A stretch of 15,527 nt of DNA from a virus. Where the stretch lies: the UHGV virus genome UHGV-1646100, one strand, 5' to 3'. The translations under genes and the position numbers were made by a program. Under the pieces are notes generated by a model that saw nothing but the letters and a program-made list of their open reading frames with translations, searched no databases and was not told where the DNA came from. Positions 3,206 to 8,485 of the stretch are shown here, piece by piece (within the stretch, counting starts at the first letter, position 1; every line of letters begins with the position of its first letter).

Positions 3206-3502
3206 TCAGAATTCCATCTGGATTTGTTCAGAACGCTCGGTTGCCGCCGGGCGTTTTTTATTGGTGAGTCCATCAAGCGCATACTTAAAAGCCCTGCTAA
3301 TCGGACTGATGTCTGATGCCATTCCGAAAGCACACAAGACCGAAGCAATAAATCTCCAGTCCGTTCTGCTTATCTTCGATTCATGACAGCCAATCATCTT
3401 TGCCAGACCGCGCTGGGTAATAGCTGACAGATTGATAAGTAAATCTGTTTCTGCGCGATCAACGTCACGCTGTGATAGTTTGCTGTAACTTGTTCTTTCC
3501 AT
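3206..3502 (-). CDS. cII: CII-like transcriptional activator (chimeric: non-lambda N-terminus, lambda-type C-terminus)
   Basis: 98-aa ORF whose C-terminus …LTNKKRPAATERSEQIQMEF matches the lambda CII tail as I remember it. It sits between cro and O. The N-terminal ~75 aa differ from lambda. Confidence 0.75.
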   Translation of the reverse strand: MERTSYSKLSQRDVDRAETDLLINLSAITQRGLAKMIGCHESKISRTDWRFIASVLCAFGMASDISPISRAFKYALDGLTNKKRPAATERSEQIQMEF

Positions 3503-3859: not shown

Positions 3860-3970
3860 ATGCCCTCCATAGTAAACACGAATAAAAAAATACAATATGT
3901 ACTTTGCGAATACAAGTAAAAATACACATTGTGCATGGATGGTTCCAGTACAGAGCGTAATAATAAGGAC
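3860..3970. promoter_or_regulatory. divergent cI/cro control region (OR operators, PR, PRM)
   Basis: Intergenic region between divergent cI and cro. Candidate PR on the minus strand: -35 TTGTAT (plus 3910-3915), 17-nt spacer, -10 TATTTT (plus 3887-3892). Operator-like motif tacaatatgtacttt (3891-3905) recurs in reverse complement at the PL region. Confidence 0.6.
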
Positions 3971-4630
3971 ATGAAAATGAAATGGTATGAACTGGCTAGA
4001 TCCAGAATGAAAGAGCTCGGCATAACTCAAGAGAAGTTAGCCGAAGAGCTAGGTATGACGCAGGGTGGGATTGGACACTGGTTGCGCGGATCTCGTCATC
4101 CATCTCTTAGTGATATTGGTGTGGTGTTTAAATACCTTGGTATTGATAACATATCATTCAACCACGACGGGACATTTTCACCTGTTGGCGAATACTCATC
4201 GGCCCCAGTTAAAAAACAATATGAGTACCCTGTTTTTTCTCATGTTCAGGCTGGGATGTTCTCTCCAGAACTCAGAACCTTTACCAAAGGCGATGCGGAG
4301 AGATTGGTAAGCACAACCAAAAAAGCCAGTGACTCTGCATTCTGGCTTGAGGTTGAAGGTAACTCAATGACCGCACCAACAGGTTCCAAACCCAGCTTTC
4401 CTGACGGGATGTTAATTCTGGTTGACCCTGAGCAAGCTGTTGAGCCCGGCGATTTCTGCATAGCCAGACTTGGTGGTGATGAATTTACCTTCAAGAAACT
4501 GATCAGGGATAGCGGTCAGGTGTTTCTACAGCCACTAAACCCACAATACCCAATGATCCCATGCAATGAGAGTTGTTCCGTTGTGGGGAAAGTTATCGCC
4601 AGCCAATGGCCTGAAGAGACGTTTGGGTGA
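3971..4630 (+). CDS. cI: CI repressor (LexA-like S24 peptidase C-terminal domain, distinct N-terminal HTH)
   Basis: ORF 3929..4630. The C-terminal half (…[26 protein letters not shown]…[90 protein letters not shown]) matches lambda CI as I remember it, including the catalytic Ser and Lys. The N-terminal HTH (…[10 protein letters not shown]…) is different. Start ATG 3971 is preceded by AAGGA. Confidence 0.85.
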
Positions 4631-4669
4631 TGAAACCACTTTTATCTACAATTTACAGGGCGGTAAACA

Positions 4670-5227
4670 TTGGCAAAAATAGATGATTATCAGCCAAGCC
4701 AAGTAGAAGTTGATAAAGTACTTTATTGTAAAAAAATAGTTAACTTTTCTGGCGTTAAATGGAAACAGAAACCAAGTCGCTCTGATATGTGGCTACAAGC
4801 CCATATCATCCCCTTGGATGAGGATTGTATACCTATACAAGGGCTAAAGTTTGAACTGAAATGGAAACCAGATCAGGATTCAGAACCTGATGACCCGATT
4901 TCTTACCCTAAAATAAATATTATTGCTTTCTATCATAACAAGAGGGTTTTCGCGGTAGATACCTATCACTTTGACAAACACACGAATAGTTACAAGGTCG
5001 ATCATCCGAAGTACCAAGATATCATTTACGGTGCTCACTACCATGTATACTATGAAGAAGCTGGATACTATAGTGATAGAATAGCGTTTCCAATCGAAGA
5101 TGACATAAACCCAGATGACCTGGTAGGGTATTGGAATTACTTCTGTAAACATCTGAACATAACTTACTCTGGGAGAATACCTTTACCGCTTGAAGATGAG
5201 TCGGGGCAAATGGGGTTTGGAATATGA
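4670..5227 (+). CDS. hypothetical protein, first gene of a two-gene cassette in the rexA position (function unknown)
   Basis: 185-aa ORF directly downstream of cI. No similarity to any protein I recognise. AT-rich. The start is a TTG (4670) with AGGG about 9 nt upstream; the first in-frame ATG is at 4787. The stop overlaps the next gene's ATG (ATGA). Confidence 0.6.
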   Translation: MAKIDDYQPSQVEVDKVLYCKKIVNFSGVKWKQKPSRSDMWLQAHIIPLDEDCIPIQGLKFELKWKPDQDSEPDDPISYPKINIIAFYHNKRVFAVDTYHFDKHTNSYKVDHPKYQDIIYGAHYHVYYEEAGYYSDRIAFPIEDDINPDDLVGYWNYFCKHLNITYSGRIPLPLEDESGQMGFGI

Positions 5228-5976
5228 TGTGCTCAACAGTGATCTCACAACTAGGTTTCGAATGCCATCCAATAGGCAAGACCTTGAGAATTATCAGTCC
5301 ATTCACTTACTGTGATGATGGAGAGCATGTCGGTGCCTTTATCCGTGAAGTCAATGGTAGGTATTTAGTTAGTGACAGATGCGATGCCTTAATGAATATG
5401 GAGGCAAGAGGGATCTCGCTTACCAAAAAACGACTTGATGAGATACGACAATTACTGCTTAAAGAAGGCGCAGAACTCAATGCTCGAGGAGAAATCATTG
5501 CTTGGGCAACAGAAAAGGATGTCGGTGCGATTACATCGAACATAATTAGAGCTGGTATACTCGCATCAACTTTGTCGTTAGACTGGTATCAGCCAGTTCA
5601 AGCTGAAAAGTTTGAAAGTATGGTTATTGATTATCTATATCACACAGAGCTTAGAGACGCACTTTCTCTTCGTGAAAACGTATATGGCTTGAGTGGACAT
5701 CAAATTACCGTCCCTGTAACAATAAAAACCGACATACCTAAATACGTTTTTACATCAAGCGTGAAACACGGAGGAAGCTGGAATAGTGCTTACTCATTGC
5801 TTGGGAAACTAATTGATCTTAAAGCTTCAAGTGAGGAGTATAACAACAGATTTGTTGTTATAGACAGCGAAGCAATTGGTGATCAAATGCAACAACTCTC
5901 CTTACTCTTCCATGAATCAAGCCAAGTTCTACCATTCTCCAAAAGAGAGACTTGGGTTAAGAGACTTGCAGCATAA
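5224..5976 (+). CDS. hypothetical protein, second gene of the two-gene cassette in the rexB position (function unknown)
   Basis: 250-aa ORF, translationally coupled to the upstream gene (ATGA overlap at 5224-5227) and followed by a strong terminator. No recognisable motifs such as Walker A. Confidence 0.65.
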   Translation: MMCSTVISQLGFECHPIGKTLRIISPFTYCDDGEHVGAFIREVNGRYLVSDRCDALMNMEARGISLTKKRLDEIRQLLLKEGAELNARGEIIAWATEKDVGAITSNIIRAGILASTLSLDWYQPVQAEKFESMVIDYLYHTELRDALSLRENVYGLSGHQITVPVTIKTDIPKYVFTSSVKHGGSWNSAYSLLGKLIDLKASSEEYNNRFVVIDSEAIGDQMQQLSLLFHESSQVLPFSKRETWVKRLAA

Positions 5977-5980
5977 TACA

Positions 5981-6007
5981 ACCCGGCCTCAGCGCCGGGT
6001 TTTCTTT
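5981..6007 (+). terminator. rho-independent terminator ending the cI operon
   Basis: Stem acccggc/gccgggt (5981-5987 and 5994-6000) with loop ctcagc, followed by tttcttt. Confidence 0.8.
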
Positions 6008-6187
6008 GCCTCACGTTCGCCCACCTAAAAACACATAACCAATTATATTTATTGAAAAATAAATAGATGCAACCCACTAAACCACGCAATTCTGATCTCT
6101 CCTTACATCGCCGAGGCAATACATCCACGCTAAAAAACAACACTATTAAATACAAAGCGTTATAAAAAACCACGCCAACTTACAACA

Positions 6188-6268: not shown

Positions 6269-6314
6269 GGCTCTTTAAACAACGTCGACTCTCGACTACG
6301 TGGCTGAAAAGCCA
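6269..6314 (+). promoter_or_regulatory. nutL-like site (boxA plus boxB hairpin)
   Basis: GGCTCTTTAAACAACG (boxA-like), then …CTACGTGGCTGAAAAGCCAG with stem UGGCU/AGCCA and loop GAAAA. Matches the nutR candidate nearly base for base. Lies upstream of the N-like gene. Confidence 0.6.
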
Positions 6315-6412
6315 GATCACCCAACCACATAAGCTGTGGGATGCAATGCCGAAGCAACCGTCTCAGGAGGAGCTTCGAGATTGCATCGCCAAAGTTTATT
6401 CGGGAGGAATCC

Positions 6413-6685
6413 ATGTCCAGAAAAACAGAATTTAAAGGCACCGCAGCTTCTCGCCGTAGAGCTCGTCGCGCAAATCTGCAAAGTCAGGAGGCGATCAGCT
6501 CCGACAAGCTACACAGGCCAACCCCTTCACGAGTGGTCTTGCAATGCAAGCTCAAACCAGCAATGAGAGCAGAAGTGATAACTCTGACAACGTTGACCAG
6601 AAAATATGAAGGTTCAACTTGTCTTCCGAACGTAGCTCTTTACGCGGCAGGCTACCGGAAATCAAAACAACTGACGGCGAGATGA
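6413..6685 (+). CDS. N: N-like transcription antitermination protein (arginine-rich motif)
   Basis: Internal Met of ORF 6341..6685, preceded by GGGAGGA. 90-aa protein MSRKTEFKGTAASRRRARRANLQ… with an N-terminal Arg-rich motif. The C-terminus …NVALYAAGYRKSKQLTAR resembles P22 gene 24-type N proteins as I remember them. Position after nutL fits. Confidence 0.75.
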   Translation: MSRKTEFKGTAASRRRARRANLQSQEAISSDKLHRPTPSRVVLQCKLKPAMRAEVITLTTLTRKYEGSTCLPNVALYAAGYRKSKQLTAR

Positions 6686-6701: not shown

Positions 6702-7283
6702 TTACTTGTTTTTGCCATGCTTATCCTGAGCGATAAGTTCATCCATAAGGCTGTCTGCCTTCCCGGCAAACCTAATGTAGCACTCATGTCTATAGCTTTC
6801 AGGGATAACGAAACGGTCGGTATCAGGATATCCAACAGCAGGAGGCCTTCGAACGAGGAGTCCTTTTTTGAGCAATGAAATTGATTCATGAGCGCCCTTT
6901 TCCGTTTGTAGCTGGTTATTAGCGGCTACAGCGAATGCCAAATACGCTCTTTCTCCAAGAGTTAACGAATCAAACAAATCTTGCACATATTTTTCTTCTT
7001 TAGATTTGCGCTTCTGAGCAGCGAATACCTCAATTCTTTCAGTCACAGCGTGATAAGCGGAATTAACAACGCCGTTAAGCACATAGCTAACGCAAAACAA
7101 CAGGATGTAATACATCCAGTAATGAGGAAGGATTTCTGGACTATGCAGGTTTATCCATTCTTTTACGCTTACCGGCATAACAATAATCAATATGATCAGG
7201 ATGATTAGCATATGAATCAACTGTTTAAGTGTCATTCCTTGCAGGAAAAAATGCATTAGTTCCTGCCACCATGAGTTGTTCAT
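6702..7283 (-). CDS. sieB: superinfection exclusion protein B (SieB)
   Basis: 193-aa ORF MNNSWWQELMHFFLQGMTLKQLIHMLIILIILIIVMPVSVKEW… with an N-terminal membrane segment; recognised as SieB of P22/lambda type. It is antisense to the PL operon between N and ral. Confidence 0.8.
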   Translation of the reverse strand: MNNSWWQELMHFFLQGMTLKQLIHMLIILIILIIVMPVSVKEWINLHSPEILPHYWMYYILLFCVSYVLNGVVNSAYHAVTERIEVFAAQKRKSKEEKYVQDLFDSLTLGERAYLAFAVAANNQLQTEKGAHESISLLKKGLLVRRPPAVGYPDTDRFVIPESYRHECYIRFAGKADSLMDELIAQDKHGKNK

Positions 7284-8248: not shown

Positions 8249-8320
8249 GCGCGGCGTTACCGCATACCAATTACGCTTCACTCGAGGCGTTTTTCGTTAT
8301 GTATAAATAAGGAGCACACC

Positions 8321-8485
8321 ATGCAATATGCCATTGCAGGGTGGCCTGTTGCTGGCTGCCCTTCCGAATCTTTACTTGAACGAATCACCCGTAAATTACG
8401 TGACGGATGGAAACGCCTTATCGACATACTTAATCAGCCAGGAGTCCCAAAAAATGGATCAAACAATTATGGCTATCCAGACTAA
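8321..8485 (+). CDS. cIII: CIII (FtsH inhibitor that stabilises CII)
   Basis: 54-codon ORF not in the track (under 60 aa): [54 protein letters not shown]. Recognised as lambda CIII. TAAGGAG lies 7 nt upstream. Confidence 0.9.
   Translation: MQYAIAGWPVAGCPSESLLERITRKLRDGWKRLIDILNQPGVPKNGSNNYGYPD

What the first reader, a model, noticed from the sequence alone, without database searches (positions are those of the whole stretch)
4670..5976. Unrecognised two-gene cassette in the rexA/rexB slot, directly downstream of cI
In lambda, cI is followed by rexA and rexB, an abortive-infection exclusion system expressed from the lysogen. Here cI (lambda-type C-terminal domain) is followed by two ORFs of 185 and 250 aa that resemble nothing I recognise: no Rex-like membrane segments, no Walker A. 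The region is noticeably AT-rich compared with its neighbours. The two genes are translationally coupled (ATGA at 5224-5227) and end at a strong terminator (5981-6007), just before PL, nutL and N. This position is a classic moron or defence slot of lambdoid prophages, so the pair is a candidate new prophage-encoded exclusion or defence system.
Basis: partly seen in the sequence, partly recalled or inferred. Interest (0 to 1): 0.85.

Follow-up and report, generated by a model that had tools for sequence, protein, structure and literature searches.

The report
Untested prophage defence candidate replacing rexAB
Two overlapping genes of unknown function sit exactly where phage lambda carries its rexA-rexB exclusion genes, always travel together behind prophage repressors in many bacteria, and are a credible anti-phage defence candidate that earlier computational screens flagged but, in the papers I could read, nobody has tested.

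Summary
ORF-A (4670-5227, 185 aa) and ORF-B (5224-5976, 250 aa) overlap by ATGA, follow cI by 39 bp and end at a strong terminator. Homology to phage lambda stops at the cI stop codon and resumes at the rexB stop codon, so the cassette replaces rexAB precisely. In 103 of 103 related loci an A-like ORF directly precedes B. In 37 of 43 distinct cases the next upstream gene is an HTH + S24 repressor, and these repressors share only 13-49% identity. Wild prophages with near-identical lambda cI and Cro carry this pair instead of rexAB.

B has a DUF1828 (type III secretion chaperone/YbjN-like) domain and a PD-(D/E)xK-fold domain with an atypical active site. A has a confidently predicted fold with no solved relative and an invariant Asp/His cluster.

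The pair is not new as a candidate. It is a distant relative of the untested PADLOC candidate PDC-M24, and both exact proteins are listed as predicted defence genes in the DefensePredictor tables, but they were not screened there.

Best reading: a lysogen-expressed two-protein anti-phage system (confidence about 0.55). The mechanism is inferred only.

The parts
3971..4630 (+). cI-type repressor (HTH_3 + Peptidase_S24). It is the first gene of the presumed operon. The longest ORF starts at 3929 and RefSeq annotates the start at 3935.
   Evidence: Pfam Peptidase_S24 E 1e-28 and HTH_3 E 2e-10. The C-terminal 135 aa are 134/135 identical to lambda cI, while the N-terminal domain is unrelated at 21/84.
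4632..5979 (+). Exchangeable cassette that occupies the rexA-rexB position.
   Evidence: blastn against lambda: homology at 93% ends at window 4631, the cI stop codon. It resumes at 90% at window 5980, which corresponds to the last bases of the rexB stop codon.
4670..5227 (+). Gene A, 185 aa. It is a beta-rich protein of unknown function and a remote DUF6978 / PDC-M24A relative.
4943..5044 (+). Invariant polar cluster of A (R92, D97, H104, N106, G121, H123, H125). It is a putative metal-binding or catalytic site.
   Evidence: These columns are invariant or nearly so across 32 homologs down to 22% identity.
5198..5224 (+). Conserved C-terminal tail of A (SGQxGLxL type), predicted to be disordered.
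   Evidence: pLDDT is below 50 for residues 177-185. The motif is conserved in 47 distinct pairs and in the Pseudomonas homolog.
5224..5227 (+). ATGA stop/start overlap between A and B (translational coupling).
   Evidence: Sequence. ATGA in 38 of 47 distinct pairs.
5224..5976 (+). Gene B, 250 aa. It is a two-domain DUF1828 + PD-(D/E)xK-fold protein and a PDC-M24B relative.
   Evidence: ORF. AlphaFold2 pLDDT 83.1. PDC-M24B E 5e-10 over the full length, and 29 of 29 family members hit it. The C-terminus is L(A/V)A in 45 of 47 distinct homologs.
5251..5568 (+). B N-terminal domain (about aa 10-115): DUF1828, with a type III secretion chaperone / YbjN-like fold.
5611..5973 (+). B C-terminal domain (about aa 130-250): PD-(D/E)xK restriction-endonuclease-like fold (DUF1829). 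The conserved SGH motif includes H159; D198 and R209 are also conserved.
5980..6010 (+). Intrinsic terminator that closes the cI-A-B unit. It is homologous to the terminator after lambda rexB.
   Evidence: Terminator scan. 90% identity to lambda. The same hairpin follows the cassette in L007, L047 and L012, and other hairpins with T-runs follow it in L010 and L107.
6341..6685 (+). N-like antiterminator ORF, which is the next gene. A boxA/boxB-like nutL lies at about 6270-6296 upstream.
   Evidence: ORF. Annotated as N in ev017. The hairpin at 6284-6296 was picked up by the terminator scan, preceded by GCTCTTTAA. The boxA/boxB reading is my own.

Best explanation
A and B form a two-protein accessory module that temperate phages carry in the repressor operon. 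They are transcribed with cI in the lysogen and stop at the terminator after B, as rexAB is in lambda. The module most likely protects the lysogen against superinfecting phages. Proposed working, all of it inferred: A is made in small amounts because it starts with GTG or TTG, and B is translated by coupling at the ATGA overlap. The two proteins form a complex, possibly through A's conserved disordered C-terminal tail docking into B's chaperone-like DUF1828 domain. A cue from an infecting phage then releases an effector activity. That activity is either DNA cleavage or binding by B's atypical PD-(D/E)xK domain (my preferred sub-model) or the activity of A's invariant Asp/His site. Either would block phage replication, possibly at the cost of the cell. 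What is shown: the gene structure, the exact rexAB replacement, the strict A-B linkage, the repressor linkage, the folds and the conserved residues. What is inferred: co-transcription, complex formation, sensing, the identity of the effector, and the defence phenotype itself.
For: The cassette replaces rexAB exactly between the cI stop codon and the terminator. No terminator lies between cI and A, and a strong one follows B. A-like and B-like ORFs are adjacent and overlapping in 103 of 103 loci from Escherichia, Salmonella-type, Klebsiella, Yersinia, Providencia, Xenorhabdus, Pantoea, Thorsellia and Aeromonas, and also in a Pseudomonas phage at 29% identity. The gene upstream is an HTH + S24 repressor in 37 of 43 distinct cases, and these repressors share only 13-49% identity, so the module has been recruited behind many immunity types. 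There is modular shuffling. The same cI (219/219 identical) is followed by two alleles that are only 40% (A) and 50% (B) identical. Near-identical lambda cI (235/237) and Cro (64/66) in E. coli ED1a are followed by this pair instead of rexAB. The slot is a known defence location for RexAB and BstA (PMC8585504), and DS-34, a cI + hypothetical unit, was validated as a defence system. B has a PD-(D/E)xK fold, the most common domain among validated systems in that study. DefensePredictor scores both genes above its strict cut-off of 4, at 4.90-5.42 for A and 5.64 for B. B is a full-length homolog of PADLOC candidate PDC-M24B, which was found embedded in BREX, DISARM or type I RM loci. The cassette is AT-rich and accessory: it occurs in 241 of 5426 complete E. 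coli genomes, always on the chromosome.
Against: There is no phenotype for this pair or for PDC-M24 in any paper I could read. Only 45% of the cloned DefensePredictor candidates validated, and that model may already use genomic context, so it is not independent of the positional argument. B's nuclease-like domain lacks a recognisable D...(D/E)xK signature. K173 is not kept in distant homologs, and the invariant residues are S157, G158, H159, T177, W186, D198 and R209. In the only validated DUF1829 protein, DS-6B of HipAD, that protein is proposed to be the antitoxin-like, DNA-binding partner rather than the effector. A's relation to DUF6978 and PDC-M24A is weak and partial: E is about 1e-4, below Pfam's threshold, and it covers the C-terminal half only. 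The tight linkage to repressors fits a role in lysogeny control or prophage maintenance equally well.
Confidence: 0.55

Rival explanations
1. The pair is a toxin-antitoxin-like addiction or stabilisation module. A would be a low-abundance toxic enzyme built around its Asp/His site. B would be an abundant, proteolytically unstable neutraliser, with its C-terminal LAA or LVA acting as a ClpXP tag. Its main benefit would be prophage retention. Any anti-phage effect would be secondary, arising because B decays when infection shuts off host gene expression.
For: The genes are small and overlap. A nearly always starts with the weak codons GTG or TTG, while B starts with ATG. B ends in L(A/V)A in 45 of 47 distinct homologs, and in ALAA in the Pseudomonas phage at 29% identity. 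From my own knowledge, this resembles the ssrA-type ClpX recognition motif. The validated DUF1829 protein DS-6B is proposed to be the antitoxin-like partner of a HipA-type toxin. A carries an invariant enzyme-like residue cluster.
Against: The pair has no promoter of its own above chance and no DNA-binding autoregulator domain; it depends on the cI promoter. The C-terminal residues of B lie at the end of a confidently modelled helix rather than in a floppy tail. Toxicity is untested. A has no similarity to any known toxin fold. No hits were found on plasmids, where addiction modules are common.
Confidence: 0.15
2. The pair is part of the lysis-lysogeny circuitry, functionally tied to the repressor. 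It might modulate induction, repressor stability or establishment, rather than acting against other phages.
For: The position directly downstream of a repressor is conserved across at least five unrelated repressor groups and several genera. The module is expressed whenever the repressor is.
Against: The same cI is found with two alleles only 40-50% identical. The same cassette follows unrelated repressors, including ones with and without an S24 domain. Lambda itself works with rexAB in this place. A specific regulatory partner of cI would be expected to co-vary with it. Neither protein has an HTH or a protease fold.
Confidence: 0.1
3. The pair serves the phage's own lytic or establishment programme, for example as a recombination or DNA-processing nuclease or an anti-defence factor. 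It would be expressed from PRE or by read-through early in infection.
For: B has a nuclease-like fold. Transcripts from a cII-activated establishment promoter would also cross the cassette; this is my inference from lambda biology.
Against: The cassette is dispensable and replaceable, because otherwise near-identical phages carry rexAB or other cargo here. It is kept in defective prophages such as the one in E. coli Nissle 1917 that is truncated by an IS element. The phage already has its own Exo, Bet and Gam genes.
Confidence: 0.08
4. The pair is a lysogenic-conversion factor that benefits the host for reasons unrelated to phages, such as stress tolerance or colonisation.
For: The cassette is frequent in extraintestinal and commensal B2 strains such as CFT073, Nissle 1917 and clone D i14. 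From my own knowledge, YbjN-like proteins have been linked to stress phenotypes.
Against: Both proteins lack signal peptides and membrane segments. The nuclease-like fold and the homology to cassettes embedded in BREX and RM loci point to nucleic-acid conflict. The module occurs in many genera with different lifestyles.
Confidence: 0.07

Closest known systems
Lambda RexA-RexB abortive-infection/exclusion system
   Same: It occupies exactly the same genomic position, between the cI stop codon and the terminator before PL. It is also a two-gene unit of about 1.35-1.4 kb, AT-rich, presumably co-transcribed with cI in lysogens, and dispensable cargo.
   Different: There is no sequence or fold similarity. 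Neither protein has membrane segments, whereas RexB is a polytopic membrane protein. No Rex family hit appeared in Pfam, PADLOC, PHROGs or NCBIfam. The mechanism is therefore very unlikely to be membrane depolarisation.
BstA (prophage BTP1 and relatives)
   Same: It is a prophage defence gene conserved directly downstream of the repressor, presumed to share its promoter, and found in diverse Gram-negative prophages (PMC8585504).
   Different: BstA is a single large protein with an anti-BstA DNA element. No homology was detected here, and this is a two-gene unit. Whether the phage has any self-immunity mechanism is unknown.
PADLOC phage defence candidate PDC-M24 (A + B)
   Same: It is the only library entry in which both proteins hit the two components of a single system. 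B matches PDC-M24B over its full length (E 5e-10; 29 of 29 family members), and A matches PDC-M24A over the His-motif half.
   Different: The relationship is distant, and A's match is weak and partial (E 5e-4; 7 of 32 members). The PDC systems were defined by being embedded in BREX, DISARM or type I RM loci and are explicitly untested. This lineage lives instead in prophage repressor operons.
DS-6 / HipAD (DefensePredictor; Brenes & Laub 2025)
   Same: DS-6B carries a DUF1829 (PDDEXK clan) domain, the same family that HHpred assigns to B residues 155-241, and it belongs to a validated two-gene E. coli defence system.
   Different: The partner there is a HipA-like kinase and the N-terminal domain is DUF3037. 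Here the partner is a DUF6978-like protein and the N-terminal domain is DUF1828. DS-6B is proposed to be the antitoxin-like component, not the effector.
Can2/Card1-type sensor-nuclease effectors and type II restriction endonucleases (PspGI, NgoMIV, Cfr10I)
   Different: The similarity is at fold level only, with 9-13% identity. B has no CARF domain, and the canonical catalytic D...(D/E)xK residues are not recognisable.

Membership tests
RexAB | Sequence homology to RexA and RexB | tested here: not met
   No Rex hit in Pfam, PADLOC, PHROGs or NCBIfam. blastn homology to lambda stops at the cI stop codon and resumes at the rexB stop codon.
RexAB | A membrane-spanning effector (RexB has multiple transmembrane segments) | tested here: not met
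   Maximum 19-residue hydropathy is 0.45 for A and 1.19 for B, against 2.39 for lambda RexB.
RexAB | Location between cI and the terminator before PL, in the cI operon | tested here: met
   This is positional equivalence only and does not establish membership.
PADLOC PDC-M24 (candidate system) | A protein matching the PDC-M24B profile | tested here: met
   E 4.7e-10, covering residues 2-249 against profile positions 4-254 of 256. 29 of 29 family members match at E <= 1e-3.
PADLOC PDC-M24 (candidate system) | An adjacent protein matching the PDC-M24A profile | tested here: inconclusive
   E 4.8e-4, covering only residues 104-163. Only 7 of 32 family members match at E <= 0.01.
PADLOC PDC-M24 (candidate system) | Demonstrated anti-phage activity | not testable with these tools
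   The PDC systems are described as 145 untested candidates.
Pfam DUF1828 (PF08861) | Score above the gathering threshold | tested here: met
   33.5 bits against 22 for residues 26-110. 29 of 29 members match.
Pfam DUF1829 / PDDEXK clan | Profile match to DUF1829 | tested here: inconclusive
   hmmscan finds no DUF1829 hit in any of the 29 members at E <= 1. The HHpred result published in DefensePredictor Table S5 gives 98.8% probability for residues 155-241.
Pfam DUF1829 / PDDEXK clan | PD-(D/E)xK alpha-beta-beta-beta-alpha-beta core fold | tested here: met
Pfam DUF1829 / PDDEXK clan | Catalytic D...(D/E)xK residues | tested here: not met
   There is no conserved acidic residue followed by x-K on the third strand. 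H159 occupies the position expected for the first Asp. K173 is replaced in the L016 and Pseudomonas homologs. The model coordinates could not be inspected, so a rearranged active site is not excluded.
Pfam DUF6978 (PF22398) | Score above the gathering threshold | tested here: not met
   22 bits against 29.6. 16 of 32 members match at E <= 0.01, with a best E of 1e-4. A is a remote relative at most.
Type II toxin-antitoxin module | Two small adjacent co-translated genes | tested here: met
Type II toxin-antitoxin module | Own autoregulated promoter and a DNA-binding antitoxin | tested here: not met
   Promoter-like sites are no more frequent than in shuffled sequence, and none precedes A with a good score. 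Neither protein has an HTH or RHH domain.
Type II toxin-antitoxin module | A toxic component neutralised by a labile partner | not testable with these tools
   The only hints are indirect: the weak start codon of A and the L(A/V)A C-terminus of B.

The most novel reading that the evidence does not exclude
The pair works by a mechanism not yet described for prophage defence. A would be a new-fold metal-dependent enzyme, kept scarce by its GTG or TTG start. It would be held in check through its conserved C-terminal tail by B's chaperone-like DUF1828 domain. B would be continuously turned over through its conserved C-terminal LAA or LVA, which resembles a ClpXP tag. A phage that perturbs host proteolysis or gene expression, or that supplies a protein competing for the chaperone-like domain, would tip the balance and unleash A, or B's atypical His-based PD-(D/E)xK domain. 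A variant of this reading is that A synthesises or modifies a small molecule that B's N-terminal domain reads, by analogy with CARF-nuclease effectors.
Probability: 0.15. Interest if true: 0.8.

Novelty: new variant of a known kind. Interest (0 to 1): 0.55.

Why it matters
If the pair is a defence system, it would be a third, non-homologous occupant of the classic cI-N exclusion slot, alongside RexAB and BstA, and a common one. This allele is in 241 of 5426 complete E. coli genomes, including the uropathogen CFT073 and the probiotic Nissle 1917. A second allele is on more than 1000 contigs, and relatives occur from Aeromonas to Pseudomonas phages. Natural prophages with lambda's own immunity region carry it instead of rexAB. 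That gives a clean isogenic setting (imm-lambda with rexAB versus A-B) for asking what selects cargo in this slot. Mechanistically, it would assign a function to three domains of unknown function: DUF1828, DUF1829 in this context, and a DUF6978-like fold with no solved relative. It would also give the first experimental anchor to the PADLOC candidate PDC-M24. It could help explain reported resistance of Nissle 1917 to lambdoid phages, which was attributed to a neighbouring gene. If it is not a defence system, the strict linkage to repressors would point to an unrecognised component of lysogeny control.

Tried and rejected
- The afdb50 fold library was not available.
- The search for related loci with the diverse A alignment failed because it has no conserved 7-10 column stretch. 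I used the B alignment instead.
- tblastn of B against plasmids gave no match. Against phages it gave only the seven near-identical E. coli/Stx phage records and one Pseudomonas phage.
- I looked for a promoter inside or in front of the cassette, by analogy with PLIT in lambda rexA. Promoter-like sites are no more frequent than in shuffled sequence.
- Rfam found nothing in the cassette.
- dN/dS was computed, but dS is saturated (above 2) for most comparisons, so I use it only qualitatively.
- Literature: there are no papers on PDC-M24, and DUF1828 and DUF6978 appear only in incidental mentions. A full-text search for the two WP accessions found nothing.
- Brenes & Laub 2025 (Cell Host Microbe, doi 10.1016/j.chom.2025.04.021) is not held in the library. 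PhiR57_1 and PhiR63_2, which carry this cassette, probably come from that study. I could not check whether the pair was tested there.
Full report
**Observation**

The window is 100% identical over this region to Escherichia phages ev017, ev207, PhiR57_1 and PhiR63_2. The gene order is that of a lambdoid immunity region read in lambda's leftward direction: O/P, cII and cro on the minus strand, then cI, the two ORFs, N and the rest of the PL operon on the plus strand.

- ORF-A is 4670-5227 (185 aa, TTG start). ORF-B is 5224-5976 (250 aa). They overlap by ATGA.
- cI, an HTH_3 + Peptidase_S24 protein, ends 39 bp before A.
- No terminator-like site lies between cI and A. A strong one (stem 5980-6001 plus a T-run) follows B.
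- There are no membrane segments and no Walker A motif.
- The cassette GC is 0.395. That is lower than cI (0.465) and N (0.499), but similar to the sieB-like gene and the region beyond it (about 0.41) and to lambda rexAB (0.409). The AT-richness is real but not unique to the cassette.

**The slot**

Aligning the window to lambda gives sharp boundaries. Homology at 93% runs through the C-terminal domain of cI and ends at the cI stop codon (window 4631). It resumes at 90% at window 5980, which corresponds to the last bases of the rexB stop codon and the terminator behind it. The segment 4632-5979 (1348 bp) therefore replaces lambda rexA-rexB (about 1.4 kb) precisely.

The window's cI has lambda's C-terminal domain (134/135 identical) but an unrelated DNA-binding domain.

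**Linkage and context**

I collected loci through exact-protein look-ups and pattern scans of genome and viral contig collections.

- In 103 of 103 loci that contain a B homolog, an A homolog lies directly upstream and overlaps it. These loci give 47 distinct pairs.
- The two loci reached through distant A homologs (24-31% identity) have a B homolog in the same arrangement.
- The next upstream ORF falls into 43 distinct sequences. Of these, 37 have both HTH_3 and Peptidase_S24, and most of the rest are short HTH-only repressors (Rac-like) or are cut by contig ends.
- The repressors share only 13-49% identity, and the replication modules beside them differ (lambda O/P, DnaB-type, IstB/DnaC-type).
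- A Pseudomonas phage (PP083311) has a CI-like repressor, one extra gene, an unannotated A-like ORF, and a B homolog at 29% identity.

The module is shuffled independently of its neighbours.

- L005 has a cI identical to the window's (219/219), but its cassette allele is only 40% (A) and 50% (B) identical. Nucleotide homology breaks about 44 nt into A and resumes about 135 nt before the end of B.
- Prophages with essentially lambda's own cI (235/237) and Cro (64/66), for example in E. coli ED1a, carry this divergent allele. Others with lambda-type cI (230/237) carry the window's allele.

The window's allele is in 241 of 5426 complete E. coli genomes, always chromosomal, including CFT073, Nissle 1917 and the type strain.

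**The proteins**

B is modelled with pLDDT 83.1 and has two domains.

- The canonical catalytic signature is not evident. The residues kept down to 29% identity are the S157-G158-H159 motif, T177, W186, D198 and R209. K173 is not kept in distant homologs.
- B ends in L(A/V)A in 45 of 47 distinct homologs.

A is modelled with pLDDT 87.8 as a beta-rich domain.

- A full HMMER scan of 1.84 billion cluster representatives found only 20 related clusters.
- Across homologs down to 22% identity, K22, W31, R92, D97, N106, G121, H123, H125, F158 and P173 are invariant and H104 is nearly so. This looks like a metal-binding or catalytic site.
- The last nine residues are predicted to be disordered yet carry a conserved SGQxGLxL-type motif.
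- A starts with GTG or TTG at a conserved 'xAK' position in about 42 of 47 distinct homologs.
- A diverges faster than B at every level, for example 66% against 82%, 43% against 65%, and 40% against 50%.

**What is already known**

No source names either protein.

- PADLOC gives the only two-component match: B to PDC-M24B (E 5e-10, full length, 29 of 29 members) and A weakly to PDC-M24A (E 5e-4, partial, 7 of 32 members). PDC systems are 145 explicitly untested candidates found embedded in BREX, DISARM or type I RM loci.
- DefensePredictor Tables S5 and S10 list WP_001062368.1 (A; log-odds 4.90 and 5.42) and WP_000968518.1 (B; 5.64) as 'Predicted novel defense gene'. Both scores are above the strict cut-off of 4. 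Neither accession is in Table S6 (units screened), S7 or S8. The overall validation rate in that study was 45%.
- The same study validated a DUF1829-containing protein (DS-6B of HipAD), proposed to be antitoxin-like, and a cI + hypothetical unit (DS-34).
- The cI-N slot is described as a mosaic hotspot carrying RexAB and BstA.
- I could not read Brenes & Laub 2025, the probable source of the PhiR phages.

**Interpretation**

The most economical reading is a lysogen-expressed, two-protein accessory module under selection to ride in the repressor operon, most likely for anti-phage protection (about 0.55). Within that reading I slightly prefer B as the effector (a nuclease fold behind a binding domain), with A as the faster-evolving partner that confers specificity or regulation.

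A toxin-antitoxin-like arrangement, with A as the effector and B as a labile neutraliser, is a serious alternative. It is supported by A's weak start codon, by B's LAA-type C-terminus, and by the antitoxin-like role proposed for DS-6B. Lysogeny control, a lytic-cycle function and non-phage lysogenic conversion remain possible but fit the shuffling pattern and the folds less well.

**Verdict**

The defence interpretation is plausible and independently predicted by others, but unproven, and it is not novel as a candidate. The mechanism is unknown, and one component has a fold with no characterised relative. Interest is moderate.

Noticed in passing
window 3288-3305 (-), inside the cII-like ORF 3206-3502 (-): Bury et al. 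2018 (PMC5987069) credited a 'phage repressor (pr)' gene, EcN_1294, with Nissle 1917's resistance to lambda and Stx phages. Their qPCR primer 1294_fwd matches inside the cII-like ORF, not cI. The reverse primer's complement also reads as the TNKKRP stretch of that ORF. Their 'repressor' therefore appears to be the cII homolog. The A-B pair two genes away in the same Nissle 1917 prophage was never tested.
   Followed up: partly
window 4670 and the homologous starts in 47 distinct pairs: Gene A uses GTG or TTG as its start codon in about 42 of 47 distinct homologs, while B uses ATG. This suggests selection for low A output relative to B.
   Followed up: partly
window 5965-5973 (the last three codons of B) and homologs: B's C-terminus is LAA (36 of 47) or LVA (9 of 47), and ALAA in a Pseudomonas phage homolog at 29% identity. 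This resembles the ssrA-type ClpX recognition motif. In the model these residues end a helix, so they may not be accessible.
   Followed up: partly
window 5230-5232 and 5263-5265 (B residues C3 and C14): Two N-terminal cysteines of B (C3 and C14) are kept even in homologs at 29% identity, and the D31-D32-x-E34 motif is invariant in the close family. This may be a structural or metal site in the DUF1828 domain.
   Followed up: no
window 6702-7283 (-): A sieB-like superinfection-exclusion gene lies on the opposite strand immediately after N. The region therefore carries a second exclusion function within 1 kb of the cassette.
   Followed up: no
window 8308-8366 (+): Rfam Lambda_thermo, the cIII thermoregulator element, matches at 88.5 bits. 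It is the only Rfam match in the window.
   Followed up: no
window 6341-6685 versus the ev017 RefSeq annotation (window 6563-6685): N is annotated as a 40-aa protein in NC_049948, as 90 aa in a related locus (L005), and the open frame here allows 114 aa. The N start looks inconsistently annotated.
   Followed up: no
L107 3420-4004 (Pseudomonas phage VB_PaD_phPA-G, PP083311): An A-like ORF overlapping the start of the B homolog is missing from the deposited annotation, which shows a 670-bp gap there.
   Followed up: yes
L026 (518-bp contig in an Actinomadura rugatobispora assembly): A tiny contig encodes the A/B junction at 82% identity to the E. coli-type cassette. This is almost certainly enterobacterial contamination of that actinomycete assembly.
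   Followed up: no
L015 8710-10314 (E. coli Nissle 1917 prophage at icd): In Nissle 1917 the PL operon beyond sieB is interrupted by an IS3-family element and a truncated integrase, so the prophage is defective. It still retains intact cI, A and B.
   Followed up: no
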